NCBI GenBank assembly: GCA_019429125.1
Contig: JAHYJO010000001.1
Span: 84,176 to 148,175 of the forward strand
DNA: 64,000 nucleotides
Direction of reading: 5' to 3'
Source of the DNA: Nanobdellati archaeon
GTDB lineage: Archaea; EX4484-52; GLR71
Shown here: piece by piece, positions 3,401 to 22,515 of the stretch
Numbering within the stretch: position 1 is the first letter of the stretch
How the letters are laid out: each line of letters begins with the position of its first letter
Notes under the pieces: model-generated
Database searches by the model: none
Told to the model about the DNA's origin: nothing
What the model saw: the letters and a program-made list of their open reading frames with translations, nothing else
Position numbers and translations under genes: made by a program

Positions 3401-4879
3401 AGCGTTTAAATCTGTAATTGTTGCTGTAACTGTTACAGTATTTCCAAGTCTTACTGGGTTTGGCGAAAGGTTACTATTTGTTATGATTGGTGCTTCAGTA
3501 TCAACATAAAATGACCAACTTGTAACAGTAGGGTTTCCAAAATAGTCTTTTACTCTAATTTCTATGTTATGTGTTTCATCAGAAAGGTTTTCTGAGGGTG
3601 TGTATGAGGCATAATTTCCAGAGGTTATCATAGTTTTTGTTGTACTGTCAAGAGTAAGTTCTAATGTTGACCAATTTATTCCAAAACCTTGATCTGTTAT
3701 TTTTACTTTTATTTCTTGTCTTGGATTTGATATGATTTCATTTATAGTTGGAGTTATTATATCTATATTTGGGGGTGTTGAATCTGCTTCTCTTGAGTCA
3801 ACATAAACCCAATTACTTCCTGATGCAGTATTATTATTTGAATCAGTTGCAGTTATGTTAATATAGTAAGTATTTGTTGAAACAACAGTTCCAGAATTAT
3901 CTGTTCCATCCCATAATTGTACTATTGCATAATCTAAGGATGTACTTGAGAATGTTTGTACAATGTTGCCATATTCATTTTTTTCCCTTATTGTTATAGT
4001 GTATTTAACATCTTGTGTGGATACTGTTGCAGATATTGTTGAGGTGTCTCCCCATGTTGGTATATTTGGATATATTGTTTCTGGATTTGCTGAGACTTCG
4101 TATATTCTGAAACCTTCTGCAGTTTCATAAATGTTAAGATAATTAAATGCTGAGTCTTGAGCGGATTCTATACATGAACAGTCATCTAAAAGACCAATGA
4201 CTTCATATTTATATTTGTCTGCGATAGAGGGTGACCATTCTGTTGTTATTTCTGCAACACCATCTTTAATTATTGTGCCATTACTATCTTTTTTTGTTGG
4301 TATTGTAACTGTTATTTCGCCACTTGTATATGCTAGACTTCCATTACTGTAATATACATTAAAGATTACTGTGTTATCTAGATCATATATGTCAAGAGGT
4401 ACTCCTGGCACGTAATTTTCTGTCCAAGATGTAATCTTATCTGTAAATGTTACGACATTATCTACTATGTAACTTGAGGATTTAACTGTAGGATTTTCAA
4501 CATTTACAGTACATGTTCTTTTTTTGAGATTGATTGTATATTGTGGAGTATAATTTGGATCATTTATTAGGAAATTATTTTTGTAAGTAGGGACATAACA
4601 ACTTCTATACATTATAAGGTCATAATATCCATTGTCTAAATCATCATAGACATAATTATTTATTCCTGTATTTTGATTGAAATAAATATTATTTATGTTA
4701 TTAACTTCAGATCTTATGAATGTTGTTTGGTTTAATGATGCGTTTGTGTAGAAGTCTTTAGCATAATATGTAAATTGTTCAGCTGAAACAAGAGTTATTG
4801 ATGCTGTAAACAGTATAACTAAGATAATTAGCAATATGTTGAATCTGTTTAATAGTTTTATATTATTTAATATTTTCAT
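479..4879 (-). CDS. large membrane-anchored surface glycoprotein (FlgD-Ig-like, Ig-like and CARDB-like repeats)
   Basis: 1466 aa with a signal peptide, 'WDGTDNSG...YYINITATD' (FlgD-Ig-like), 'KVIVDPTNSIYESNETNN' (CARDB-like), many NxS/T sequons, a Gly/Ser linker, and a C-terminal TM helix with a basic tail. Confidence 0.85.
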   Translation of the reverse strand: MKILNNIKLLNRFNILLIILVILFTASITLVSAEQFTYYAKDFYTNASLNQTTFIRSEVNNINNIYFNQNTGINNYVYDDLDNGYYDLIMYRSCYVPTYKNNFLINDPNYTPQYTINLKKRTCTVNVENPTVKSSSYIVDNVVTFTDKITSWTENYVPGVPLDIYDLDNTVIFNVYYSNGSLAYTSGEITVTIPTKKDSNGTIIKDGVAEITTEWSPSIADKYKYEVIGLLDDCSCIESAQDSAFNYLNIYETAEGFRIYEVSANPETIYPNIPTWGDTSTISATVSTQDVKYTITIREKNEYGNIVQTFSSTSLDYAIVQLWDGTDNSGTVVSTNTYYINITATDSNNNTASGSNWVYVDSREADSTPPNIDIITPTINEIISNPRQEIKVKITDQGFGINWSTLELTLDSTTKTMITSGNYASYTPSENLSDETHNIEIRVKDYFGNPTVTSWSFYVDTEAPIITNSNLSPNPVRLGNTVTVTATITDLNAVDTVYTKINGIAGTITMNKAGDIYTGTFTTPEIPTEYTIMIIANDTLGNIAKDAITLEVRSKPDLHISAFESNIPSPVSEGLIINLIAHVVNGGDEVLNTQIQLWDNLVLIATKDITINTISSEEIIFNYDTLGKLGIHNFKVIVDPTNSIYESNETNNEKYLELEIRDTTPPQILTFTPTEDQHVNTFNLGATTNENATCKYDTIDTDYSAMANTFTTTGTTIHTQELTLTDGAYTFYTRCQDNYGNSNQESNMTSFTIDTKPYIKISTDNITINQTDRFNISINLENYGYSTAEGILTITIPERLTLISGNTTDNISIIVGYNNTYELELEATWWGDYVINIEADYNNQIKTSKIYVQSTPIPIYEFRIASPEELVENDTTQVAIGIYNKGIVNGNNATINISTTSNLAIVGSSSKEITTIYANTTEQNASWIDFEIKGISSGTGTIYITVDGITQEKTITVKNTHLYIDLSVSSIAPFNISLGRSFLVTAVIYNTGNSTSLATKAEIALETGLETSSTNPVLLGDIEPTVNGIPPIRQEWIINSTSSGPKQINMTIISLFEPEYNASESVMINILDLPEPVQPFITIESDVNKTILYGTTFNITAKINNIGTDASINTKAQLSGVDGLEFITTQTIDIDILEINQETTITWTLNATTTGTFNPQITITEIEHQFSDKTNFDIRYAHDVRINSFNAPTSANTGNTIVISGVLENAGLYDENGINVTLSINGHIITTKTYNLASGNTTGVEFGWTASEGTHTLKLSAYIPYDQNTSNNNLSGTITVTTETNNGGGSSSRSGSSRSSTIIIVNETNTETTDENVATTYISEIELSDSLYIGQTMTLKGCLTNPKSNTVDLVIDYKIVKTQELDENDCFSITYKIENLATGTHNIAIKQGEATLYSKDVLIYQYVLTDYKEDKEQTNVTVINGPTGNILSTIGSSNLIIYLLILLIIIAVYFKREKIRTIVIKK

Positions 4880-11866: not shown

Positions 11867-12079
11867 TCATTTTAGTTTTTGGACAAATGCATGTTCTGTC
11901 TTTTGTGGATTGTTTAGGCCTATTGGGTTCTTATTGTCATCAACACCTATGATTATCTTTCCCCCTCTGGAATTATAGAATGAGGTTACTAATTGTGCTA
12001 CTTTTTTTGGGTTTGATAATATCTCTTTGAACTCTATGTCACTGTTTTCTTCTTGATTTAATAGTTGTTTAAAGTCCAT
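11867..12079 (-). pseudogene. N-terminal AlbA_2 (Schlafen-like) domain fragment of an AlbA/HATPase/HTH protein
   Basis: 'ENSDIEFKE...VTSFYNSRGGKIIIGVDD' is the AlbA_2 motif; the ORF stops after 70 aa. Confidence 0.75.
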
Positions 12080-12100
12080 GTGTCTATATTGTTTCTTGTG

Positions 12101-12143
12101 CTTGCATATAATTGGGTTACAACTGGGGTGGTGATTTTAGGGA
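12101..12143. repeat. diverged copy of the ~58-bp accessory repeat
   Basis: CTTGCATATAATTGGGTTACAACTGGGGTGGTGATTTTAGGGA aligns with the repeats at 17541 and 18793. Confidence 0.6.
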
Positions 12144-12785: not shown

Positions 12786-12826
12786 GTATCAGAAGGTTTA
12801 TATGGTTTTTGAGTGTATTATTTAGT

Positions 12827-14134
12827 ATGAACTCAATTGAGATACTTGAAATATTGAATGATTGGAACTTTTGGAAAAAGAAGCAATTTGTGGGTGTTCG
12901 GCGGTCAGACGTTTTTGATAAAATAAAAAAACTTATAGAACTTGATGAGATTATCGTGATTAGTGGTGCTCGTCGTACTGGTAAATCAACTGTACTTATG
13001 CAGATTTGTGAGGATTTGATAGTTAATGGTGTTGATTCTTGTGATATTCTTATAATTAATTTTGAGGATCCTCGTTTTAAAAGTATTAATCTTGAATTAC
13101 TTAATAAAATATATGATGTTTATTTAACTGATGTATCTGTTGGTTCTGGAAAACAGTATGTTGTTCTTGATGAGGTTCAAATTGTTTCGGGGTGGGAAAA
13201 ATTTGCTCGTTTTTTGCATGAGAATAAAAAAGTGAAGGTATTTGTTATAGGTTCAAGTTCAAAGCTTTTGAGTTCTGAATATTCAACAGTTCTTTCTGGG
13301 CGTTATGTTGATATTGTTATGTATCCTTTATTTTTTAAGGAGTTTGTTGAATTTAATGGTGTGGATATAAAAAATAATTTGGATCTTGTGTCTAAACGCC
13401 ATGCTGTCAAAAAATTATTTTTACAATATATGGAATCTGGGGGTTTTCCGAAAACTGTACTTATTGATGATGCTGATAATCGAAAAGTCTTGCTTAATTC
13501 TTATTTTCAGAGTATATTGATGAAAGATATTGTTATGAGGTATAATATTAACGATGTTTTTAAACTTGAAGAATTGACTAAGTATTATTTGTCAAATATA
13601 TCCTCTTTGCATTCTTTTAATAAAATTAAAAATATTATTGGTGGGAGTATTGACACTGTTGAACGGTATTCATCATATCTTCGTAATGCTTATATGTTAT
13701 TTTTTGTTCGTAAATTTTCATATACTCTTAAAGATCAAATATTGAATCCTCGAAAGGTATATTGTATTGATATGGGTCTTAGAAATTCAGTATCTTTTTA
13801 TTTTTCAAAGGATTATGGGAAGATTATAGAAAATATAGTGTATCTTAAGTTACTTGAAAATAAAGGTTTTGATATTTATTATTGGAAAGATTCTAAGCAG
13901 CGCGAAGTTGATTTTTTAGTTAAAGAGAAAGATAGGATTTGTCAAGCCATACAGGTGTGTTGGGATGTTAGTAATCCTGTCACTAAAAAAATAGAGGTTG
14001 ATGCACTTTTGTCGGCTCTTTCAACATTTGGTCTTAAAGAAGGTCTTGTTCTTACTGAAGATTATGATGAAGTAGTTGTGATTGATGAGAAAAGAATAAC
14101 ATTTATGTCTGTTTGGAAATGGTTGTTTTTGTGA
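12827..14134 (+). CDS. AAA+ ATPase, AAA_14/DUF4143 (COG1373) family
   Basis: Walker A GARRTGKS, Walker B VVLDEVQ, 'GGFP', 'PRKVYCIDMG', and a C-terminal 'EVDFLV...AIQV'. Confidence 0.9.
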   Translation: MNSIEILEILNDWNFWKKKQFVGVRRSDVFDKIKKLIELDEIIVISGARRTGKSTVLMQICEDLIVNGVDSCDILIINFEDPRFKSINLELLNKIYDVYLTDVSVGSGKQYVVLDEVQIVSGWEKFARFLHENKKVKVFVIGSSSKLLSSEYSTVLSGRYVDIVMYPLFFKEFVEFNGVDIKNNLDLVSKRHAVKKLFLQYMESGGFPKTVLIDDADNRKVLLNSYFQSILMKDIVMRYNINDVFKLEELTKYYLSNISSLHSFNKIKNIIGGSIDTVERYSSYLRNAYMLFFVRKFSYTLKDQILNPRKVYCIDMGLRNSVSFYFSKDYGKIIENIVYLKLLENKGFDIYYWKDSKQREVDFLVKEKDRICQAIQVCWDVSNPVTKKIEVDALLSALSTFGLKEGLVLTEDYDEVVVIDEKRITFMSVWKWLFL

Positions 14135-14468: not shown

Positions 14469-16616
14469 ATGCAATTAAGAAAAATCGGAACAGCACTTGT
14501 TGGTGCTGTATTGACGAGCGCAACTCTAATGGGTGGCGCTTTGGCTGCTGATTTGGGAACTTTCCCTGCACCATTCGCAACTGATAATGGAATTCAATCC
14601 ACTATTGTTGTCGGATCAAGTGGATCAGTACAAGATGTTATAGGCGCAATAAACATTGGCGCAGCTCTAGCACAGGTTGGCGGTACAGTCGCTGGCGGTG
14701 TAGGTGCAACTACAACAGCTACAGGAGTAAAGACAGATGATTTAAAACTTAATGAAGCTGTAAATGTTTTAGGTACAACTCTTAAAGGCAATAAAATCGC
14801 AGGTCTTATTGATACAAAAATAACTTTTGATGATGGAACAAAATCAAGAAATTATGATGTTCATGAAGAGATAGGTCTAACACCAACTCTTAAGGTTCTT
14901 TCCAGTGTTGATGATGCTGATTTTGGAGCAGAGATTGTACTTGCAACTATAAATAAACCAGCTGTAACATACACATATGTTTTTGAAAAGGATTCAAACA
15001 TGGATATTTCTAAAATAACAGCTACAAATCCACTTGAAGTTACAATACTTGGTAAGAGACTTAAAATAACTAACGTTGATAATGCATCTAATTCAATAAC
15101 AGTACAAGAAGGTATGGAAGTTGCAATGGGTATGGATACTAAAGTAGAAATTGATGGCAAAGTGCTTGAAGTTACTGCAATAGGTCAGGGTACTGCTGCA
15201 TTCAAAGTTGGTGTACATACGGCATTTATTAACTATAATTCCGAGTCTCCTGTAACTAAAGAAATTGGAACATCCGGTATTAAAGTAACACTTGATAACC
15301 TTCTTTATACAGATGATGCAGGTTCAAGACAGGTTCTTGTAACTGCTGGAACATCAACAACTGATACAATAACTGATGGTGATCCAATGACTATGTTTGG
15401 TGAAGTTGATGATTCAACTGATGCTGTATGGCTTTGGTCTATAGAGGCTTCAGAGACTCCTGGTGAGGAGCTCAGAATTGGTGCTAAACATAACCAGAAA
15501 TATGATGAACTTGATGAAGATGTAATAACTCTTGGCAACAAACTATCATTCCCTAATGACTATGCTGCTATATCTCTTGATGCATTAACTGTTTCCGATT
15601 TTGGTAGATATGAACTATATTTTGAAACGGTTGACTTTACTGTTGGTCCAGATGAACAATCTATTACTACAATTGAAAATGTAAATGTTATAACTTTGCG
15701 TGCAATTGATGGAAACGATGATGGATTTAAAGTCAGTGTACCAGGTAGTATTGATGAAGATGCAGATATTGTTTATATCGGTTTGAAGGATACTACTAAT
15801 GGTGGTCTTATATATGGGTTTAAAAACTCAAATAATAAGAACCAGATTGCATCATACGGTGAGGAATCTGCTGCTGAGTTTAACTTGACTTTTGAAGATA
15901 CAGTTATGGCTGTTGCAGGTGATAATGAAACAAATCAGGTTACTATTACTGATGCAAACAATGACATAATAGCTCTTAATGTAAGTGCTACATGGAATTC
16001 ATTACAAAAGAAAACTGATGCAGAGGCTGATGATGTTGTTATTGCAACTAAATCTAAGGGTACAGAAGAAAATGATGTAAGAATGACTTACGGAACTCTT
16101 ATTTTGGCACCTAAAGCAAATGCAGAGAAGGATAAAGTAATCTTCGAAGTACCTGCTGAAGTTCTTAAAGTAACTGTAACTGTTAGTGGACCTGGTTCAT
16201 CTGTAACTACTGTTGCTGGTGTTGCTGGTGGATACACTCCTGCTGCACTTCCTGCTACAGGTATTGCAAAGCTTGACAGTGATGCTGAAGCTGCAAAGAC
16301 TGGTAACTTAATCCTAGTTGGTGGTCCTGCTGTAAACAGTATTGTTGCTGAACTTGCTGCTGCTGGTAAGACTCGAACTACTGCTCAGTGGAGAACTGAA
16401 ACTGATGGTGTAAGAGATTATAAAGACAGTGCTCTTATACAGGCAGTTGACAGTGCATTCACAAACGGTAAAACAGCTCTTGTAGTTGCTGGTTATGGTG
16501 CTGATGACACAGGTAACGCTGCATACGTTCTACAGAACTATGCTAAGTTCGCTGATCAGCTTGCTGGTAAGTCTGAAGTAACTGTTACAGGTACAACAAC
16601 TGATGCTGTACAGTAA
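14469..16616 (+). CDS. S-layer protein (split S_layer_N / S_layer_C type)
   Basis: 'KIGTALVGAVL...AADLGTFPAPFA...IVVGS', C-terminal 'NLILVGGPAVN...LVVAGYGADDT'; strong codon bias, and its own TATA box and terminator. Confidence 0.88.
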   Translation: MQLRKIGTALVGAVLTSATLMGGALAADLGTFPAPFATDNGIQSTIVVGSSGSVQDVIGAINIGAALAQVGGTVAGGVGATTTATGVKTDDLKLNEAVNVLGTTLKGNKIAGLIDTKITFDDGTKSRNYDVHEEIGLTPTLKVLSSVDDADFGAEIVLATINKPAVTYTYVFEKDSNMDISKITATNPLEVTILGKRLKITNVDNASNSITVQEGMEVAMGMDTKVEIDGKVLEVTAIGQGTAAFKVGVHTAFINYNSESPVTKEIGTSGIKVTLDNLLYTDDAGSRQVLVTAGTSTTDTITDGDPMTMFGEVDDSTDAVWLWSIEASETPGEELRIGAKHNQKYDELDEDVITLGNKLSFPNDYAAISLDALTVSDFGRYELYFETVDFTVGPDEQSITTIENVNVITLRAIDGNDDGFKVSVPGSIDEDADIVYIGLKDTTNGGLIYGFKNSNNKNQIASYGEESAAEFNLTFEDTVMAVAGDNETNQVTITDANNDIIALNVSATWNSLQKKTDAEADDVVIATKSKGTEENDVRMTYGTLILAPKANAEKDKVIFEVPAEVLKVTVTVSGPGSSVTTVAGVAGGYTPAALPATGIAKLDSDAEAAKTGNLILVGGPAVNSIVAELAAAGKTRTTAQWRTETDGVRDYKDSALIQAVDSAFTNGKTALVVAGYGADDTGNAAYVLQNYAKFADQLAGKSEVTVTGTTTDAVQ

Positions 16617-16627
16617 ATTGTTTGAAT

Positions 16628-16663
16628 GAGGAGCTTTATGCTCCTCTTTTTCTTTTCTTTTTT
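16628..16663 (+). terminator. hairpin plus T-tract terminator of the S-layer gene
   Basis: GAGGAGC-TTTAT-GCTCCTC followed by TTTTTCTTTTCTTTTTT. Confidence 0.7.
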
Positions 16664-16761
16664 AATGTTGATTATTTGTTCTTGAAAATTTTATTTTTTG
16701 TGTGGTATGAGTATTTTTATAAGTATTAGGATTCCTTATTCTCTAAAAAATGTGGATATTT

Positions 16762-17071
16762 ATGATTACATCGACTAAAATATTGATTGCTGAATAAGTA
16801 TCAACAGATTTAGCTTTAAGAAATTCCGCAGATAGATTCTTTGATTTTATTGATTCAATTAAACAAGATAATATAATTATTGATTTTAAAACGGTTGAAT
16901 TTATATCTCAATCGTTTGCACATCAGTATTATTTAAGAAAAAAAGTTCTAAAAAAATAATTAATGAAATAAATATGTCATTAAATATAAAAAAATGTTTA
17001 AAATTGTTTCAGAACAAAAACAAAAAAAGCAAGTAATTACTATGAATGCATCTGATGCGATAAGTATTTGA
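16762..17071 (+). pseudogene. decayed STAS-like (DUF4325-type) gene
   Basis: MITSTKILIAE*VSTDLALRNSADRFFDFI...IIIDFKTVEFISQSFAHQY...; in-frame TAA at 16795 and frameshifts in A-runs. Confidence 0.7.
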
Positions 17072-17150
17072 GAAAGTTAGTTGGTTTTTTAGTGATTGGT
17101 GTTGTAGTAATTAATTATATTATACTTTTGTATATTTTATTTTTCCAATA

Positions 17151-17192
17151 TGTCTGCATATAATTTAATGATTACTTTTTGTGATGTGTCTA
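17151..17192. repeat. degenerate copy of the ~58-bp accessory repeat
   Basis: TGTCTGCATATAATTTAATGATTACTTTTTGTGATGTGTCTA versus TGCCTGTATATAATTTAGTGACCACTTTTGGTGGTGTATTTA; the differences are almost all transitions. Confidence 0.7.
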
Positions 17193-17534
17193 TGATGTTT
17201 TTTCAATAACTTCCCAATGTCCACCTTTATCAGGACCTATGCGTTTAAGCCGACCTTTTTCTTTTAGCTTCTTGATGTTTTCTTTTATCTTTCTTTGAGA
17301 AATATCCATCAATTCAGATAATTCATTTGCTGAAATACCAGCATCTTTAAGTATAAATTTTATAATATTCTTTTGATTTTTGGTTAATTTTTCTCCGACC
17401 TTTTCAGTGACCTTTTCTCCGACCTTACCATTCAATATTGAAAGATTTTTTCGTTTAAAAACAGCCACAAACGTACCAAATACATCTTTAAATTCAGTTT
17501 CGGGCTCTTTGAATGTTTTTGTTTCTAAATACAT
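17190..17534 (-). pseudogene. C-terminal wHTH fragment of an AlbA/HATPase/HTH (RecG-C-like) protein
   Basis: 'KVGEKVTEKVGEKLTKNQ...ISANELSELMDISQRKIKENIKKLKEKGRLKRIGPDKGGHWEV' is the typical C-terminus of this family; the N-terminal domains are absent. Confidence 0.7.
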
Positions 17535-17540
17535 AATTGG

Positions 17541-17598
17541 GTTTGTTCAACTTGCCTGTATATAATTTAGTGACCACTTTTGGTGGTGTATTTAGGGA
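17541..17598. repeat. 58-bp perfect direct repeat, copy A
   Basis: GTTTGTTCAACTTGCCTGTATATAATTTAGTGACCACTTTTGGTGGTGTATTTAGGGA, identical to 18793-18850. Confidence 0.95.
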
Positions 17599-17626
17599 GT
17601 TTTACTTAGTTATGTATTTTTTGAGA

Positions 17627-18142
17627 CTAAATTTTGCTATTAATTATTTCTTTGACTTTTGATACAAACATTACTGTATTGATTCTTAATTGTTCTATCT
17701 CATCATTATCAAATAGTATGTTTGCGGAATATGATGCAAGTTCTCGTTTGTTTTTTGAGTCTACATAGAATAAGATGTCTTTATAATTAAGAAAAAGTGA
17801 GATTAATTCTATATCGTTTCTTGTTAATTCTTTACTGTAAAATTCTTTAATTAGGATACAGAGTGTTGCAAGGTGACTTTTTGAAGAATAGCCTTTACTT
17901 AATATTAATGCCAATGCAGCATGGTAACAGGCATAATAACATCCGGTTATTGCCCAGTCTGGATAATTCAACTGTATTGCATCTTTTATGAAATTGAGAT
18001 TATGTTTGGCTTTTTGGAAATGACCTTTTATTTCTCCTTTTGATGATTCTTTTTTAATTATTTTTTTATGTATAAAATTTTCTATTCTTTTTTCAACTAA
18101 ATGTGGATTATTAAGCATATTATTTAATTCGTAGATATTCAT
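17627..18142 (-). CDS. HEPN domain protein (toxin-like partner of an MNT-HEPN pair)
   Basis: 'HFQKAKHNL...DWAITGCYYACYHAALALILSKGYSSKSH...KRELASY'; overlaps the upstream MNT gene. Confidence 0.88.
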   Translation of the reverse strand: MNIYELNNMLNNPHLVEKRIENFIHKKIIKKESSKGEIKGHFQKAKHNLNFIKDAIQLNYPDWAITGCYYACYHAALALILSKGYSSKSHLATLCILIKEFYSKELTRNDIELISLFLNYKDILFYVDSKNKRELASYSANILFDNDEIEQLRINTVMFVSKVKEIINSKI

Positions 18143-18734
18143 CGTAAATGCACGTATAATAGTATATATGGTTGGTTAACGGATAACCTGTCTCAATTGC
18201 AGATTGAATGACTGGTTCTTCTTTAATTTTAATTTCTTTTTTGAATTTTGGAAGTGTGATCTGAAAATCATTTATTTTCATAGATGTTTGTGTCTCAACA
18301 TAGTTTTTTGCATTTGTTGTATCTATTTTTTTATTTGATATGAGCAAAATATCTATATCGGATTCTTTTGTATAATTATTTTTTGCAGTTGATCCGAAAA
18401 GGAACATGATTATCGGTTTTTCGTCTAAGGTGTCTATAAATATGTTAATTGCGTCTTTTCTGAGAGTATTTAATTGTTGCATTTTTTCTGTGTCAAAACA
18501 GGTAAATAATGCATATGTCTCTTTTGTTTTTTTTATTTTGTATCTTTTCATATTCCCTTCTTTTTCAGAACTTAAGATTCTTGAGAGTTCAAGTTTATTT
18601 AGGAATCTGTATGCACTGTTTTCATTAAGTTCTGTTTTTCTGGCAAGTTCTCTAAGGTGAATACATTGATTCTTATTTTCATAGAAGAATCTAAGGATTC
18701 TTTCAATTCCCGGAGTTATAATATTGTTTAACAT
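18120..18734 (-). CDS. wHTH plus minimal nucleotidyltransferase (MNT, antitoxin-like)
   Basis: N-terminal HTH 'HLRELARKTELN' and the NTase motif FGSTAKNNYTKESDIDI. Confidence 0.9.
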   Translation of the reverse strand: MLNNIITPGIERILRFFYENKNQCIHLRELARKTELNENSAYRFLNKLELSRILSSEKEGNMKRYKIKKTKETYALFTCFDTEKMQQLNTLRKDAINIFIDTLDEKPIIMFLFGSTAKNNYTKESDIDILLISNKKIDTTNAKNYVETQTSMKINDFQITLPKFKKEIKIKEEPVIQSAIETGYPLTNHIYYYTCIYDEYLRIK

Positions 18735-18792
18735 ATTTCAACAATTGTTTAATTGTTTTAAACAGTTATATGTTTGTTGGTTATATCAATAT

Positions 18793-18850
18793 GTTTGTTC
18801 AACTTGCCTGTATATAATTTAGTGACCACTTTTGGTGGTGTATTTAGGGA
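18793..18850. repeat. 58-bp perfect direct repeat, copy B
   Basis: Identical to 17541-17598. Confidence 0.95.
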
Positions 18851-18893
18851 AATGTCTTTTAATATTTAAAATTATACATACCTTATCTATTTT

Positions 18894-20033
18894 ATGGATA
18901 AAATAAAGGCAAAATTGAAGCAGATGCCATCTGATTTTGTTGTGAAAGAGATATTACCTGATAAGCGCATTCTTGATATTAATACCCAATTTGATTATCC
19001 AAATGAGGGAAATACTTTACATTGTATACTTAAAAAAGAGGATTTTGATCAGTTCCGCGCTGTAGGCATCATTGCATCTGAATTGGGAATTGCTTCAAAA
19101 GATGTTGCTATATGTGGAACAAAGGATAAGATAGCGCATACAACACAGAGAGTGTCTATTAAAGGGTGTAAGAGTGTTGATATAGATAAACTTGTGTTGG
19201 GCGACATAAGTATTAAATATCTTGGCAGAGGGCCTGAATTGCGCATTGGTGAGCTTTACGGCAATCACTTTGAGATTGTTTTGAGAGGCATTGATATAGA
19301 TAAAGAGGAACTCTCAAAATATCTTCAAAAAATAAAAGACAATCCTAAATTTCCCAATCATTTCGGTGAGCAGAGGTTTGGGTCTATAAGACCTATATCA
19401 CACATTGTAGGAAAACATGTAATTCTTGGTGATTTTAAGGGTGCTGTGCTTGATTATATCTGTCTTTGCTTTCCTCGGGAGTCTGAAATGATACAAAAAG
19501 CCAGAATTAAGGCAAAGAGTGACATTAAGGCTGCTCTTGAACTGTTTCCTAAGTCTTCATATTATGAGCGGGTGATGATGTCTCATCTGATTGAGAAACC
19601 AGAGGATTATCGTGGTGCCTTTTTTAGGTTGCCACCCAATCTTCAGAAACTTATGGTGCACGCTTATCAGTCATATCTTTTTAATAGGATTTTAGATAAA
19701 GTAATAGCTTCAGGTTTTGGTAATCGTATGCTTGAGATACCTCTGTTCGGGTTTGGGATGAACATACCAAAAGATCCTAAATTAGTTGCTATAATGCGCG
19801 AGGTCCTTAAGGCAGAGAATATTAGTCTTGGTAATTTTAGGGATGATTCTTCAAGACAATTGGGGTCAAAAGGTGGTCGCAGAAAGGCATTTCAGACTGC
19901 AGAACAATTTAAGGTTGTAGAAATCGGTGACGATGAACTTAATTTAGGAAAAATAAAATGTAAAATATCTTTCTCGCTTCGTAAAGGGACATATGCAACT
20001 GTTTTTTTAGGTAATAATTTTGACTTGTCTTGA
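18894..20033 (+). CDS. truD: tRNA pseudouridine(13) synthase
   Basis: 'PSDFVVKE', catalytic 'GTKDKIAHTTQ', 'GNHFEIVLR', 'NHFGEQRFG', 'FSLRKGTYAT'. Confidence 0.93.
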   Translation: MDKIKAKLKQMPSDFVVKEILPDKRILDINTQFDYPNEGNTLHCILKKEDFDQFRAVGIIASELGIASKDVAICGTKDKIAHTTQRVSIKGCKSVDIDKLVLGDISIKYLGRGPELRIGELYGNHFEIVLRGIDIDKEELSKYLQKIKDNPKFPNHFGEQRFGSIRPISHIVGKHVILGDFKGAVLDYICLCFPRESEMIQKARIKAKSDIKAALELFPKSSYYERVMMSHLIEKPEDYRGAFFRLPPNLQKLMVHAYQSYLFNRILDKVIASGFGNRMLEIPLFGFGMNIPKDPKLVAIMREVLKAENISLGNFRDDSSRQLGSKGGRRKAFQTAEQFKVVEIGDDELNLGKIKCKISFSLRKGTYATVFLGNNFDLS

Positions 20034-20509: not shown

Positions 20510-21211
20510 TTATTGGTATATATTAAAGATGGTCTCAAGTTCGTCTTTTTCGACAAAACCTTTTCTTATAGTGTCAAAATTGATTATCATTGCTGGTAAA
20601 TTATCTATATCTATATTGTAGCTATTACGTATTGTGCTTATCAATGGGTCTTTATCATATTCACCGTCTATTGATAGAACTACAAGTTTTCCGTGTTTTT
20701 TGTATCCGTTTTCTTGTTTTGTGTCATCATTGTATTTTTTTACAAATTCGTCAAGTATGTATCCTTGTATTTCTGAAGTTTTATCATCTATCTTGTAAAA
20801 ATACAGTATAGGTGTATACTCATCTTTGCATGAATCCTGATAGTTGTGTATATGATTATAAAATTTTATTTCCATCAGGAAATATCTGCGTTTCAGGTAT
20901 TCAAATTCTGTTTTTTTGAAATCAGATGCACTACCGTATCGTTGCAGTTCACGGCCAGTCTCGCCAAGGTCTTTACTTATCATTTCTATTCTAGGGGTTA
21001 GTATCTTACAATCTATGTTTCCTATGTTTTCTAAAAATATCCATTCTATATTATAGCTTTCACTGTTTAGTTCATTGTCTTTTATTATGTTTAATACTTC
21101 ATTAGTCCTGTAATTGTCAAGAACCCAACCTATCATGATACCGCTTGTGAAGATGACTATTGCTGCTATAAGGCTTGTTATAAATATGTGTTTTATGTAT
21201 TGTTCTTTCAT
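20510..21211 (-). CDS. conserved membrane-anchored hypothetical protein (thioredoxin-like C-terminus)
   Basis: N-terminal TM helix, 'LKRRYFLMEIKF', 'ILYFY...SEIQGYILD', 'LPAMIIN'; directly downstream of the GT2 gene. Confidence 0.75.
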   Translation of the reverse strand: MKEQYIKHIFITSLIAAIVIFTSGIMIGWVLDNYRTNEVLNIIKDNELNSESYNIEWIFLENIGNIDCKILTPRIEMISKDLGETGRELQRYGSASDFKKTEFEYLKRRYFLMEIKFYNHIHNYQDSCKDEYTPILYFYKIDDKTSEIQGYILDEFVKKYNDDTKQENGYKKHGKLVVLSIDGEYDKDPLISTIRNSYNIDIDNLPAMIINFDTIRKGFVEKDELETIFNIYQ

Positions 21212-21267
21212 TTAAAGTCCTCTGTTTTTGATTATGATATTAATTTCATCAGATATATTTAAAAATG

Positions 21268-22515
21268 CTACCATACTCGTTTTGATTTGCGTAATTCAAG
21301 AATTAAGGAACATATCCAGCTTAGAGTTACAATCCATGAATATACGGTGAGGAATAGTAAAAATGCTATTATAGATTTAGGGGATAAATCTATTTTATTT
21401 TCTATAAGTTTGTGTGCTTTATACATCATGTATAATCCAATTGCTGTTATTATTAATAGTGGTATTGTTATCTTAAAATTTATGGTCAATAATGTTTGTT
21501 TTATTGTGAGTATATCTATTAGATTAAGTATTGAGGTCTCTGCAATTATTGTTCGTTGATATATGTATTTTAACCAAGTAAATATGCCATTAAAGACAAT
21601 TGTTGTGGTTAAGAATACTATAAATATTCCTAGTATATTAAGGGGTAGCATGAATAGTCCTAAGAGCCCGAATTCTTTGTTTAAATGCATGTGTTTGTAT
21701 TTTCGTGCATTATATATGTAACCTCTAAACCATCTGATTCTTTGACGCATCAATGCTTTAAACGTGTCTGGTGCATTCGTGTGTGTTATGCTTCTAATCT
21801 CAAATGCGATGTGTTTATGTTTGTTGTGGAGGCGTAATGCAATTTCTAGGTCTTCAGTTATGTTGTCAGCTTCATCAAAATAACCTTCAGTTTTGAGGTC
21901 TTCTGTCCTGTATACACTTAAGACACCAGGGGTTACGTACATACAGTTTATGAATGAATATAATGTTCTAAATATTGCTGCATACATGTATTCAAATACT
22001 TGAATTTTTTCAATAATTTTTTTGTGATTTCTAATTAATATACTGCTTGAGCAACCTGATATTTCTTTCTTTCTGAAATGTTGGACAAGGCGTATTACTG
22101 ATTCTTTTTCGATGTATGAATCAGCATCTACACAGGCGAACAATTCTTTTTTTGATCTTTTTAGTGCAACATTTAATGCATGGCCTTTGCCATGATTTTT
22201 TGTGCTTATGACTATTACGCCTTCTTTTTTGTATTTTTTTGCGATTTTTGCAGTGTTGTCTTTTGAGCCGTCATCTATTACAAATATTTCGTATCTGTCT
22301 TTGGGATAGTCTATATTTAATATTGATTCTATTGTTTTTGCTATTGTAGTCTCTTCATTATAGGCTGGGATTGTGAAAGTTATTGAGGGGTAATAGCCTT
22401 TTTTAGGTTTAATACTTTCTTCAATCTCTTTTTTACTTAGAAAAAGTAGATTTATCCAGATGATTGAAATGTATAATCCTATGAATGAAATTATGAGCAT
22501 GACGTATTCAAGCAT
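21268..22515 (-). CDS. processive family 2 glycosyltransferase (PgaC/IcaA/cellulose-synthase-like)
   Basis: PAYNEE, DDGS, DAD, TED and QRIRW motifs; multiple TM helices. Confidence 0.9.
   Translation of the reverse strand: MLEYVMLIISFIGLYISIIWINLLFLSKKEIEESIKPKKGYYPSITFTIPAYNEETTIAKTIESILNIDYPKDRYEIFVIDDGSKDNTAKIAKKYKKEGVIVISTKNHGKGHALNVALKRSKKELFACVDADSYIEKESVIRLVQHFRKKEISGCSSSILIRNHKKIIEKIQVFEYMYAAIFRTLYSFINCMYVTPGVLSVYRTEDLKTEGYFDEADNITEDLEIALRLHNKHKHIAFEIRSITHTNAPDTFKALMRQRIRWFRGYIYNARKYKHMHLNKEFGLLGLFMLPLNILGIFIVFLTTTIVFNGIFTWLKYIYQRTIIAETSILNLIDILTIKQTLLTINFKITIPLLIITAIGLYMMYKAHKLIENKIDLSPKSIIAFLLFLTVYSWIVTLSWICSLILELRKSKRVW

What the first reader, a model, noticed from the sequence alone, without database searches (positions are those of the whole stretch)
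16762..18850. Repeat-delimited gene-cassette array with a polar decay gradient (candidate gene-capture system)
Seen: two identical 58-bp direct repeats (17541, 18793) enclose exactly one intact MNT-HEPN module, a 1252-bp unit. A third, degenerate copy (17151) closes the next unit, a truncated wHTH gene, and overlaps its stop codon. Beyond that lies a STAS-like pseudogene with a stop and frameshifts. Repeat identity and cargo integrity therefore both decline away from the truD end. On the minus strand the repeat holds an ACCAC-N5-GTGGT palindrome, a TATA-like TTATATAC, and GTTGAAC near its end (fits the GTTRRRY integron core), but it lacks the overall attC palindrome. Inference: cassettes are added at one end with duplication of a site that may also supply a promoter, analogous to integron or CRISPR polarity but with an unrecognised site. 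No recombinase is present in the window.
Basis: partly seen in the sequence, partly recalled or inferred. Interest (0 to 1): 0.78.

Follow-up and report, generated by a model that had tools for sequence, protein, structure and literature searches.

The report
Duplicated promoter brackets inserted toxin-antitoxin module
In a tiny DPANN archaeon, a 58-base promoter from a lineage-specific family that heads mobile-type accessory genes occurs as two exact copies on either side of a toxin-antitoxin gene pair inserted beside truD, so the "cassette array" is a promoter-marked insertion hot spot and not an integron.

Summary
There are two identical 58-bp direct repeats (17541-17598 and 18793-18850), a degenerate third copy (17139-17196) and a STAS-like pseudogene.

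On the minus strand the repeat is an archaeal promoter: an ACCAC-N5-GTGGT dyad next to a BRE/TATA element, ending just before the wHTH start codon. I call it a "P-box". It belongs to a family with about 10-20 copies per genome in this family of genomes. None was found in 32 other genomes of the order.

P-boxes head AlbA_2-wHTH, DUF1016, ORF6N/KilA-N/Bro-N, HTH-MNT/HEPN and a few unknown genes.

The S-layer-truD interval varies between species. It is empty in two, holds one AlbA_2 gene behind a single orthologous P-box in one, and an ATPase+STAS pair in another. Compared with the single-copy state, this genome has exactly 1194 bp (MNT-HEPN) plus a second copy of the 58 bp.

Two more sharp-edged, near-perfect P-box pairs each flank one module (48/48 and 67/68).

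No attC-like fold or integron integrase was found. The "truncated" wHTH is a conserved short gene (dN/dS about 0.23).

Best reading: recombination at a shared promoter created the duplication. A dedicated capture system remains possible but unsupported. No reads could be examined.

The parts
18793..18850 (-). P-box copy B: 58-bp promoter block (dyad ACCAC-N5-GTGGT, BRE/TATA), next to truD and upstream of HTH-MNT
   Evidence: Identical to copy A. R1 family model 55.1 bits. Its upstream flank is orthologous to the truD-side spacer of G003.
18735..18792 (-). 58-nt leader of the MNT-HEPN insert. It has its own TATA-like TTTAAAAC starting 28 nt before the ATG, plus a palindrome and TTAAACAAT repeats (likely autoregulatory operator; inference).
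   Evidence: Sequence. Palindrome I2. Genome-wide TATA peak at -32..-27.
18120..18734 (-). HTH-MNT nucleotidyltransferase (204 aa), antitoxin-type partner
   Evidence: Pfam NTP_transf_2 1.5e-8, Polbeta 1.6e-8, HTH_IclR 3.7e-4. MntA_antitoxin below cut-off. GS..DxD motif read.
17627..18142 (-). HEPN-domain protein (171 aa), overlapping the MNT gene by 23 nt
   Evidence: Pfam HEPN 5.8e-6, above cut-off.
17541..17598 (-). P-box copy A: the same 58 bp. It ends 6 nt before the wHTH ATG. TTATATAC starts at -31, so a leaderless mRNA is predicted.
   Evidence: (54.8 bits). Orthologous to the single P-box of G003 (79% over 57 nt).
17190..17534 (-). Short wHTH gene (114 aa): AlbA_2-type N-terminal stub fused to the C-terminal winged helix; a conserved short form
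   Evidence: HTH_24 3.8e-9. 61% identical to an 89-aa gene of G001, sharing the same junction. 36% identical to the C-terminus of the G003 AlbA_2 protein. dN/dS about 0.23 over 102 codons.
17139..17196 (-). P-box copy C: degenerate older copy with no gene behind it, fused to a ~14-nt relic of a wHTH gene 3' end
   Evidence: 41/58 matches, tied best in the genome. 72% to A and B. 11.3 bits. Relic TTTTCCAAT aligns with the wHTH 3' remnant of G006.
16762..17071 (+). STAS-like (DUF4325-type) pseudogene: stop at codon 12 and two 1-nt deletions (near 16937 and 16991)
   Evidence: Alignment with the intact 103-aa gene of G006. Pfam DUF4325 5.7e-4 for the G006 protein.
16711..16761 (+). Last ~50 nt of the ATPase-like gene that precedes the STAS gene in G006; the rest is deleted here
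   Evidence: alignment starts here.
14469..16616 (+). S-layer protein gene: core gene bounding the variable interval, followed by a hairpin and T-run
   Evidence: S_layer_C 8.6e-12. Conserved neighbour in G002, G003 and G007.
18894..20033 (+). truD: core gene bounding the interval, with its own TATA-like box at -29
   Evidence: TruD 1.3e-94. Orthologues at 82-84% identity in G003, G006 and G007.
12086..12143 (-). P-box copy D, heading a 70-aa AlbA_2 fragment (11870-12079)
   Evidence: 39.2 bits. SLFN_AlbA_2 1.3e-12.

Best explanation
The 58-bp repeat is a promoter, not a dedicated recombination site. Read on the minus strand it holds a dyad (ACCAC-N5-GTGGT) directly next to a BRE/TATA element. 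The dyad is probably the binding site of a dimeric winged-helix regulator. The block ends about 4 nt before the predicted transcription start, so copy A would give a leaderless wHTH mRNA.

It belongs to a lineage-specific promoter family ('P-box') that heads a fixed set of mobile- or defence-type accessory genes in this DPANN family: AlbA_2-HATPase_c_4-wHTH, DUF1016/YhcG nuclease, ORF6N/KilA-N/Bro-N, HTH-MNT/HEPN, Fic, and a few unknown families.

The interval between the S-layer gene and truD is an insertion hot spot. Its original occupant was an AlbA_2-type gene behind one P-box. A 1194-bp MNT-HEPN module, which carries its own TATA box, then entered exactly at that P-box, leaving the 58 bp on both sides.

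The most likely route (inferred, not shown) is homologous 'ends-in' or Campbell-type recombination between the resident P-box and P-box sequence flanking the incoming module. Gap repair from the resident copy would give two identical, sharp-edged copies. Copy C is the relic of an earlier round.

Shown: the anatomy, the family, the synteny, and that the copies at this locus are each other's closest relatives. Inferred: promoter activity, the regulator, and the recombination route.
For: Promoter:
- In 18 of 67 P-box copies examined, the first ORF starts 7-10 nt after the model end, across unrelated gene families.
- The genome has a peak of TATA-like 8-mers starting at -32..-27 from ATGs (59 of 322). 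Copy A's box starts at -31.
- The conserved columns are the two half-sites and the TATA region.

Family:
- The R1 model finds 13-15 copies in G000 and 1-20 in the nine other genomes of the family.
- It hits 8 of 9 family genomes and 0 of 32 genomes in seven other families of the order at E<=1e-3.
- An exact 25-nt pattern hits only 3 records among 185,579 species genomes, all DPANN MAGs, and 0 viral contigs.

Cargo of the 67 copies (part assigned by Pfam, part by eye):
- AlbA_2-type: 17
- DUF1016: 11
- ORF6N/KilA-N/Bro-N: 9
- HTH-MNT: 5
- Unknown families: 14
- TctA: 1
- None or unclear: 10

Hot spot:
- G007 and G002 have S-layer and truD adjacent, with no P-box.
- G003 has one AlbA_2 gene behind one orthologous P-box.
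- G006 has ATPase+STAS plus a wHTH relic.

Exact insertion: the flanks of B and A match the two sides of G003's single P-box.

Local origin: the five most similar of 120 P-box pairs in G000 are all neighbours, including A-C and B-C.

Recurrence:
- G002:C13 has 48/48 identical bases around MNT-HEPN.
- G000:C32 has 67/68 around DUF1016.
- No flank similarity was found in any of the three pairs.
Against: - There are no transcript data. No sequencing run was listed, so neither promoter use nor the assembly of the repeat could be checked.
- The MNT gene has its own TATA-like box, so copy B may be idle. This removes a selective reason for the duplication and leaves the mechanism as the only explanation.
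- Homologous recombination needs a donor carrying nearly the same 58 bp. No such donor was found: the nearest MNT homologue in the family is 32% identical.
- A 58-bp target duplication with no flank homology is also what a site-specific or staggered-cut mechanism would leave.
- The regulator is a guess.
- Copy C is weak by the family model.
- Only three sharp pairs and ten genomes were available, and kin are not independent.
Confidence: 0.6

Rival explanations
1. Dedicated cassette capture. The P-box is the attachment site of a lineage-specific site-specific recombination system. Modules excise as circles carrying one P-box and integrate at a resident P-box, duplicating it. New units enter next to truD.
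For: - One module plus one site is added exactly, relative to G003.
- There are three sharp-edged pairs with no flank homology: 58/58, 48/48 and 67/68.
- Orphan copies have no gene behind them: copy C, and G002:C13 copy 2.
- At a second site (orfX/DedA-like), cargo between P-boxes differs: MNT-HEPN in G002 and three ORF6N genes in G001.
- The dyad could be a recombinase binding site.
Against: - No recombinase is tied to the motif. There are only two XerA-type proteins on another contig, below the integron-integrase cut-off. There is no serine recombinase and no Cas1 above cut-off.
- Tyrosine recombinase counts do not follow the motif across 42 genomes.
- The edges of the three pairs fall at different places relative to the dyad and TATA, unlike a fixed cross-over point.
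- The fixed spacing to start codons and the conserved TATA are explained by promoter function.
- Many P-box genes are tandem paralogues whose promoters simply duplicated with them (G006:C54, G007:C146).
- Most MNT-HEPN modules lack a P-box.
Confidence: 0.12
2. Gene conversion. MNT-HEPN arrived with its own, diverged P-box. The two neighbouring promoters were later homogenised by intrachromosomal conversion over 58 bp (concerted evolution).
For: - Neighbouring copies are the most alike genome-wide.
- In G002:C13 the second copy sits on a flank orthologous to G001's distinct P2 promoter, yet is identical to the first copy over 48 bp. This looks like conversion of P2 by P1.
- MNT-HEPN modules in relatives do sit behind P-boxes.
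Against: - The identical block extends 5 nt upstream and 14 nt downstream of the roughly 40-nt region that family members share. Both of its ends coincide with the ends of the native G003-type block. A conversion tract should end inside pre-existing homology.
- No residual diverged homology is found in the flanks.
Confidence: 0.18
3. Assembly artefact. The chromosome has a single P-box. A separate 1252-bp circle, a tandem array or a strain variant sharing the 58 bp was threaded in as a loop by the assembler of this metagenome-derived genome.
For: - The genome is a 32-contig draft.
- A repeat flanking a short unit is the graph shape that a loop would give.
- 58 equals k-1 for k=59, a k used by some assemblers (recalled, not checked).
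- No reads could be examined.
Against: - Analogous pairs of other lengths (48 bp and 68 bp, the latter with one mismatch) occur in another contig and in another species' assembly.
- Both junctions (trailer-to-P-box and P-box-to-leader) must exist in real molecules in any case.
- Copy C shows that the locus has duplicated this site before.
Confidence: 0.06

Closest known systems
Putative mobile promoters / promoter reuse in prokaryotes (Nijveen, Matus-Garcia and van Passel 2012, PMC3575422; whole text read)
   Same: Highly similar promoter sequence (at least 80% over at least 50 nt) upstream of unrelated genes within one genome, with the mechanism of spread unknown. The A/B pair (58/58, MNT versus wHTH) meets that operational definition.
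   Different: - This is an archaeal BRE/TATA promoter with an upstream dyad.
- It forms a family of 10-20 diverged copies tied to one functional class of genes.
- The near-perfect pairs are always neighbours that bracket one module. That survey did not describe this pattern (by my reading of the commentary; the full NAR paper was not read).
Integrons, including archaeal integrons (Ghaly et al. 2022, PMC9668308; passages read)
   Same: Same-orientation units separated by a repeated site. Accessory and toxin-antitoxin cargo. Content differs between relatives. The newest unit lies at one end.
   Different: - No IntI.
- The site is not an attC: there is no single-strand hairpin beyond a 5-bp stem (z about -1).
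- The site lies 5' of each gene and carries a promoter, whereas integron cassettes are mostly promoterless and read from Pc.
- The 7-bp core is not conserved.
Hot spots or islets of horizontal transfer between conserved core genes, and defence islands (recalled from general knowledge; no paper read here)
   Same: A fixed interval between two core genes (S-layer gene and truD) that is empty in some species and filled with different defence- or mobile-type genes in others, with frequent pseudogenes.
   Different: The occupants here share one promoter family, and the promoter itself is duplicated at the insertion point.
Campbell-type / ends-in homologous integration with gap repair (recalled from general genetics)
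   Same: It yields an insert bracketed by two identical direct copies of the shared homology, with edges where the homology stops.
   Different: The homology here would be only about 58 bp and is a promoter. No donor or circle has been seen.
Shared regulatory sequences upstream of early or anti-defence genes of archaeal viruses (PMC11065993; search listing and start of abstract only)
   Same: One conserved regulatory sequence heads many unrelated small accessory genes of mobile origin in archaea.
   Different: Those are viral genomes of Sulfolobales-type hosts. Here the copies are chromosomal in a DPANN lineage, and the motif was not found in viral contigs.

Membership tests
Integron | Integron integrase (a tyrosine recombinase with the IntI-specific extra domain) next to the array | tested here: not met
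   None in the window. The genome has two tyrosine recombinases on contig C25. Both pass the archaeal XerA model (226.8 and 277.5 bits, cut-off 220). Both fall below the integron-integrase model TIGR02249 (213 and 175 bits, cut-off 265).
Integron | attC sites: imperfect palindromes that fold as single strands | tested here: not met
   Both strands of the 58-mer fold only into the 5-bp stem, at -3.9 kcal/mol with z about -1. No Rfam family matched 16000-19500 at E<=10 apart from three chance-level hits. That Rfam holds an attC model is recalled, not checked. IntegronFinder could not be run.
Integron | Conserved GTTRRRY core at cassette boundaries | tested here: not met
   GTTGAAC is present in A and B (GTTGAAT in G003), but that segment varies across the family alignment. 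It is absent from the 48-bp and 68-bp pairs (read by eye).
Integron | Mostly promoterless cassettes read from a common promoter | tested here: not met
   Each unit is preceded by its own TATA-bearing P-box, and MNT has a further TATA-like box at -28. Transcription itself was not measured.
Putative mobile promoter (PMP) | At least 80% identity over at least 50 nt upstream of genes whose coding sequences are not homologous | tested here: met
   58/58 identical, upstream of HTH-MNT and of the wHTH gene, with no flank similarity. Definition taken from PMC3575422.
Archaeal BRE/TATA promoter | An A/T-rich TATA box about 25-30 nt upstream of the transcription start, with a purine-rich BRE just upstream | tested here: inconclusive
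   TTATATAC starts at -31 from the wHTH ATG. This lies inside the genome-wide peak at -32..-27 (59 of 322 ORFs). The spacing is kept in 18 of 67 copies. No transcription-start data exist.
HEPN-MNT (type VII) toxin-antitoxin module | MNT nucleotidyltransferase with a GS...DxD motif paired with a HEPN protein in one operon | tested here: met
   NTP_transf_2 1.5e-8 and HEPN 5.8e-6. The genes overlap by 23 nt. FGS..DID was read in the translation.
HEPN-MNT (type VII) toxin-antitoxin module | Catalytic R-x4-6-H motif in the HEPN protein | tested here: inconclusive
   By eye there is only an N-terminal RIENFIH (residues 19-25), and none at the usual C-terminal position (translation). No alignment was made.

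The most novel reading that the evidence does not exclude
The P-box is both a promoter and the attachment site of an undescribed, integrase-independent or unknown-recombinase cassette exchange system of DPANN archaea. Modules such as MNT-HEPN, DUF1016 or ORF6N genes excise as small circles carrying one P-box. They re-insert at any resident P-box and arrive with a ready promoter. This would make P-box arrays an archaeal functional analogue of integrons, built on a promoter instead of an attC.
Probability: 0.12. Interest if true: 0.85.

Novelty: new variant of a known kind. Interest (0 to 1): 0.5.

Why it matters
DPANN archaea have tiny genomes, yet they keep islands of mobile-type and defence-type genes whose regulation and turnover are unknown. 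This finding matters in three ways.

1. A single lineage-specific promoter/operator heads nearly all of these genes. That points to one regulon, perhaps autoregulated by the AlbA_2-type winged helix, and gives a simple handle for finding further accessory genes. Three unknown protein families already turn up this way.

2. Exact duplicates of this promoter repeatedly bracket single modules. This suggests that shared promoters also serve as landing pads for gene exchange. That would be a concrete mechanism for "promoter reuse", whose routes are still unknown.

3. If a dedicated enzyme were involved, it would be a new kind of gene-capture system.

Tried and rejected
- Metagenome contigs searched with the MNT protein: none encodes a relative.
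- Metagenome contigs searched with the motif pattern: one chance hit inside a coding region of a high-GC bacterial contig.
- Viral contigs searched with an 18-nt motif: 0 hits.
- Sequencing runs for 16600-19400: none was listed. Circle junctions, empty alleles, expression and assembly could therefore not be checked, and read laying was not used.
- Homodimer prediction for the 114-aa wHTH protein: no verdict. It counts neither for nor against.
- Rfam search: only three chance-level hits.
- tRNA genes as possible att sites at the locus in G000, G002, G003, G006 and G007: none.
- Flank similarity around the three near-perfect pairs: none above shuffles. My by-eye impression of extended upstream similarity in G002:C13 was not significant.
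- An extra tyrosine recombinase as a lineage marker for the motif: rejected.
- A close donor for the MNT-HEPN module within the family: none found, best 32% identity.
- The idea that the wHTH gene is a recent local deletion of the syntenic AlbA_2 gene: rejected in favour of an older, conserved short form.
- (fuzzy regex scan) timed out and was replaced by BLAST and an ungapped scan.
- IntegronFinder is not available here.
Full report
**1. Observation**

The window holds two identical 58-bp direct repeats at 17541-17598 (A) and 18793-18850 (B), 1252 bp apart. The identity stops abruptly on both sides. They are the only perfect copies in the 1,158,795-bp, 32-contig, 34% G+C genome.

All genes between the S-layer gene and truD that relate to the repeat lie on the minus strand:
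- HTH-MNT: 18734..18120, 204 aa (NTP_transf_2 1.5e-8).
- HEPN: 18142..17627, 171 aa (HEPN 5.8e-6).
- A wHTH gene: 17534..17190, 114 aa (HTH_24 3.8e-9).

A third copy, C (17139-17196), matches 41 of 58 positions. That ties for the best non-self score among 2,313,942 positions. C is also the closest relative of A and B among 16 family copies: 72% against a median of 52% over 120 pairs. A family model built without it gives only 11.3 bits (E 0.045 in 138.6 kb).

The STAS-like pseudogene (16762-17071) is real but lies on the plus strand. Against an intact 103-aa orthologue in sister genome G006 it has a stop at codon 12 and two 1-nt deletions. Only the last ~50 nt of the upstream ATPase-like gene survive.

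**2. What the repeat is**

On the minus strand the repeat reads TCCCTAAATACACCACCAAAAGTGGTCACTAAATTATATACAGGCAAGTTGAACAAAC. This is a 5-bp dyad with a 5-nt spacer that directly abuts a BRE/TATA-like element.

Copy A ends 6 nt before the wHTH ATG. Its TTATATAC starts at -31. Genome-wide, TATA-like 8-mers peak at -32..-27 from ATGs (59 of 322 ORFs with such a box). This is the signature of leaderless transcription.

Diverged copies of the same block occur upstream of other genes in the genome and in relatives. I aligned 14 of them (A1). The conserved columns are the two half-sites and the TATA region. I then built a sequence-only model, R1.

R1 results:
- All 10 genomes of the family have hits. 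G000 has 15, and the nine others have 1-20, at E<=0.1.
- At E<=1e-3 it hits 8 of 9 family genomes and 0 of 32 genomes in seven other families of the order.
- An exact 25-nt pattern hit only three records among the species genomes, all titled as DPANN ("Candidatus Nanohaloarchaea archaeon" or "archaeon") MAGs.
- It hit no viral contig, and one chance site in a high-GC bacterial metagenome contig.

**3. What the P-box heads**

I examined the first ORF behind 67 copies: 39 and 28. Pfam was run on 45 products. The rest were assigned by eye from the translations.

| First ORF | Copies |
|---|---|
| AlbA_2-type (SLFN_AlbA_2 + HATPase_c_4 + wHTH, fragments, or the short wHTH form) | 17 |
| DUF1016/YhcG nuclease | 11 |
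| ORF6N, KilA-N or Bro-N | 9 |
| HTH-MNT (with HEPN) | 5 |
| Families without a Pfam match (two small proteins, one ~500-590-aa exported protein, others) | 14 |
| TctA (weak motif) | 1 |
| None or unclear | 10 |

In 18 of the 67, the ORF starts 7-10 nt after the model end. No clearly housekeeping gene heads the list. The P-box is therefore a promoter/operator specific to mobile- or defence-type accessory genes. That the AlbA_2-type winged helix binds the dyad is my inference. A homodimer prediction for the short wHTH protein gave no verdict.

**4. The locus in relatives**

truD orthologues (82-84% identity in G003, G006 and G007) allow a synteny comparison:
- G007 and G002: the S-layer gene and truD are adjacent, with only a terminator hairpin and the truD promoter between them, and no P-box.
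- G003: one intact 442-aa AlbA_2-HATPase_c_4-wHTH gene lies on the minus strand behind a single P-box. That P-box is 79% identical to the 58-mer. Its two flanks match the truD side of B and the gene side of A.
- G006: an ATPase-like gene plus the intact STAS-like gene on the plus strand, then a short 3' relic of a wHTH gene.

Compared with G003, G000 has gained exactly 1194 bp (leader, MNT, HEPN and a 28-nt trailer) plus a second copy of the 58 bp. The insert has its own TATA-like TTTAAAAC at -28 and a palindrome with TTAAACAAT repeats over the start. Copy B is therefore not obviously needed to express it.

**5. The wHTH gene is not a wreck**

- Its first 17 codons and promoter are orthologous to the start of G003's AlbA_2 gene.
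- The rest is only 36% identical to that protein's C-terminus.
- It is 61% identical to an 89-aa stand-alone wHTH gene at another locus in G001. That gene shares the same junction (KEPETEFKDVFG.FVAVFKRKN) and also sits behind a P-box.
- Between the two, dN/dS is about 0.23 with dS near 1, over 102 codons (two sequences, so this is rough).

It is a conserved short form, so the "decay gradient" reduces to the degenerate copy C and the STAS pseudogene. Copy C is followed by TTTTCCAAT. This aligns with the wHTH 3' relic of G006, so C looks like an old promoter fused to the last bases of a lost gene.

**6. Recurrence**

A self-comparison of G000 found one more motif-bearing near-perfect local pair. 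It lies at C32:3375-3442 and 4556-4623 (67/68 identical, 1181 bp apart). It brackets a DUF1016 gene, with an AlbA_2 gene following.

In G002:C13, two copies share 48/48 bp, 1166 bp apart, around an MNT-HEPN pair. The second copy has no gene behind it, but its flank matches the leader of G001's short wHTH gene. None of the three pairs has significant flank similarity.

Other same-orientation neighbours are older or are plain tandem paralogues:
- G003:C72: a 72%-identical promoter plus a DUF1016 5' fragment precedes MNT-HEPN, and an intact DUF1016 gene follows.
- G006:C54 and G007:C146: tandem ORF6N genes.

At the orfX/DedA-like site the cargo differs between genomes: MNT-HEPN in G009 and G002, and three ORF6N genes, then wHTH and Fic, in G001.

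**7. Mechanism**

An integron is excluded on every testable criterion (see the membership rows).

The edges of the three pairs fall at different places relative to the dyad and TATA. This argues against one fixed cross-over point.

The 58-bp block runs 5 nt upstream and 14 nt downstream of the region that family members share, and it coincides with the native G003-type block. This speaks against simple gene conversion between two older promoters.

I therefore favour integration by homologous recombination at the P-box, either ends-in or Campbell-type with gap repair. That route duplicates the resident sequence exactly. However, no donor was found: the best MNT relative in the family is 32% identical. 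No reads could be examined either. A dedicated mechanism, gene conversion and an assembly loop all remain open, and I rate them at 0.12, 0.18 and 0.06.

**8. Comparison with the literature, and verdict**

The closest described concept is "putative mobile promoters" (PMC3575422, whole text read). The A/B pair meets that operational definition.

Archaeal integrons (PMC9668308, passages read) share the array look but not the parts.

Searches for DPANN promoter motifs, defence islands and promoter duplication listed nothing that describes this motif. That is a statement about those two searches only.

Earlier notes of this scan call the genome a DPANN archaeon and do not touch this locus.

Verdict: the feature is real. 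The main new element is a lineage-specific promoter family that marks, and perhaps mediates, accessory-gene turnover.

Noticed in passing
window 11870-12143 (minus): P-box copy D (39.2 bits) heads a 70-aa AlbA_2 fragment. It shares the CTCCCTAAA upstream stretch with copies A and B. It lies next to an AAA_14/DUF4143 ATPase gene (12809-14134).
   Followed up: partly
G000:C32:3375-4623 (L073 1876-3124): A second near-perfect P-box pair in this genome (67/68, 1181 bp apart). It brackets a DUF1016/YhcG gene and is followed by an AlbA_2 gene.
   Followed up: partly
L029:1721-1960, L072:1646-1882, L074:85-315, L059:997-1233; L030:1857-2195, L035:622-957, L084, L096; L027:208-1980, L050, L087, L089: Three protein families with no Pfam match recur behind P-boxes. 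One is ~80 aa (starts MKMVEFVTVKEDEVKFGDNNFF). One is ~112 aa (starts MSK[VI][KN]HIFDTLKIG). One is a ~500-590-aa exported protein (starts MDRKIKM).
   Followed up: no
G000 contigs, e.g. C27:43273-43879, C13:66452-67057, C12:1-1175, C13:54536-54702: The genome has many multi-copy repeats (2739 non-self BLAST pairs). These include IS-like elements with transposase-like ORFs and non-coding families of about 170-500 bp that look like MITEs. One 273-bp repeat ends 2 bp from P-box copy E (C14:31630-31901).
   Followed up: no
window 18718-18771: A palindrome and TTAAACAAT repeats span the MNT start codon and its own TATA-like box. This is a likely autoregulatory operator of the HTH-MNT protein.
   Followed up: no
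G000:C25:2830-3312 and 21152-21634 (L077, L078): Two XerA-type tyrosine recombinase paralogues lie 18 kb apart on one contig. The role of the second is unknown.
   Followed up: partly
P-box hits in G001-G009: About 19 of ~65 P-box hits lie within ~600 bp of a contig end in these fragmented assemblies. This is more than the ~13% expected for 9-kb contigs, and suggests that P-box islands break assemblies (repeats or strain variation).
   Followed up: no
L016 840-915 (G006, between the wHTH relic and truD): About 70 nt of G+C-richer sequence with a CTGTTGC..GCAACAG palindrome replaces the P-box region. ARAGORN finds no tRNA there.
   Followed up: partly
window 16617-16660: A hairpin (GAGGAGC TTTAT GCTCCTC) followed by a T-run lies right after the S-layer gene. 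It is conserved in G003 and G007 and is a likely terminator.
   Followed up: no
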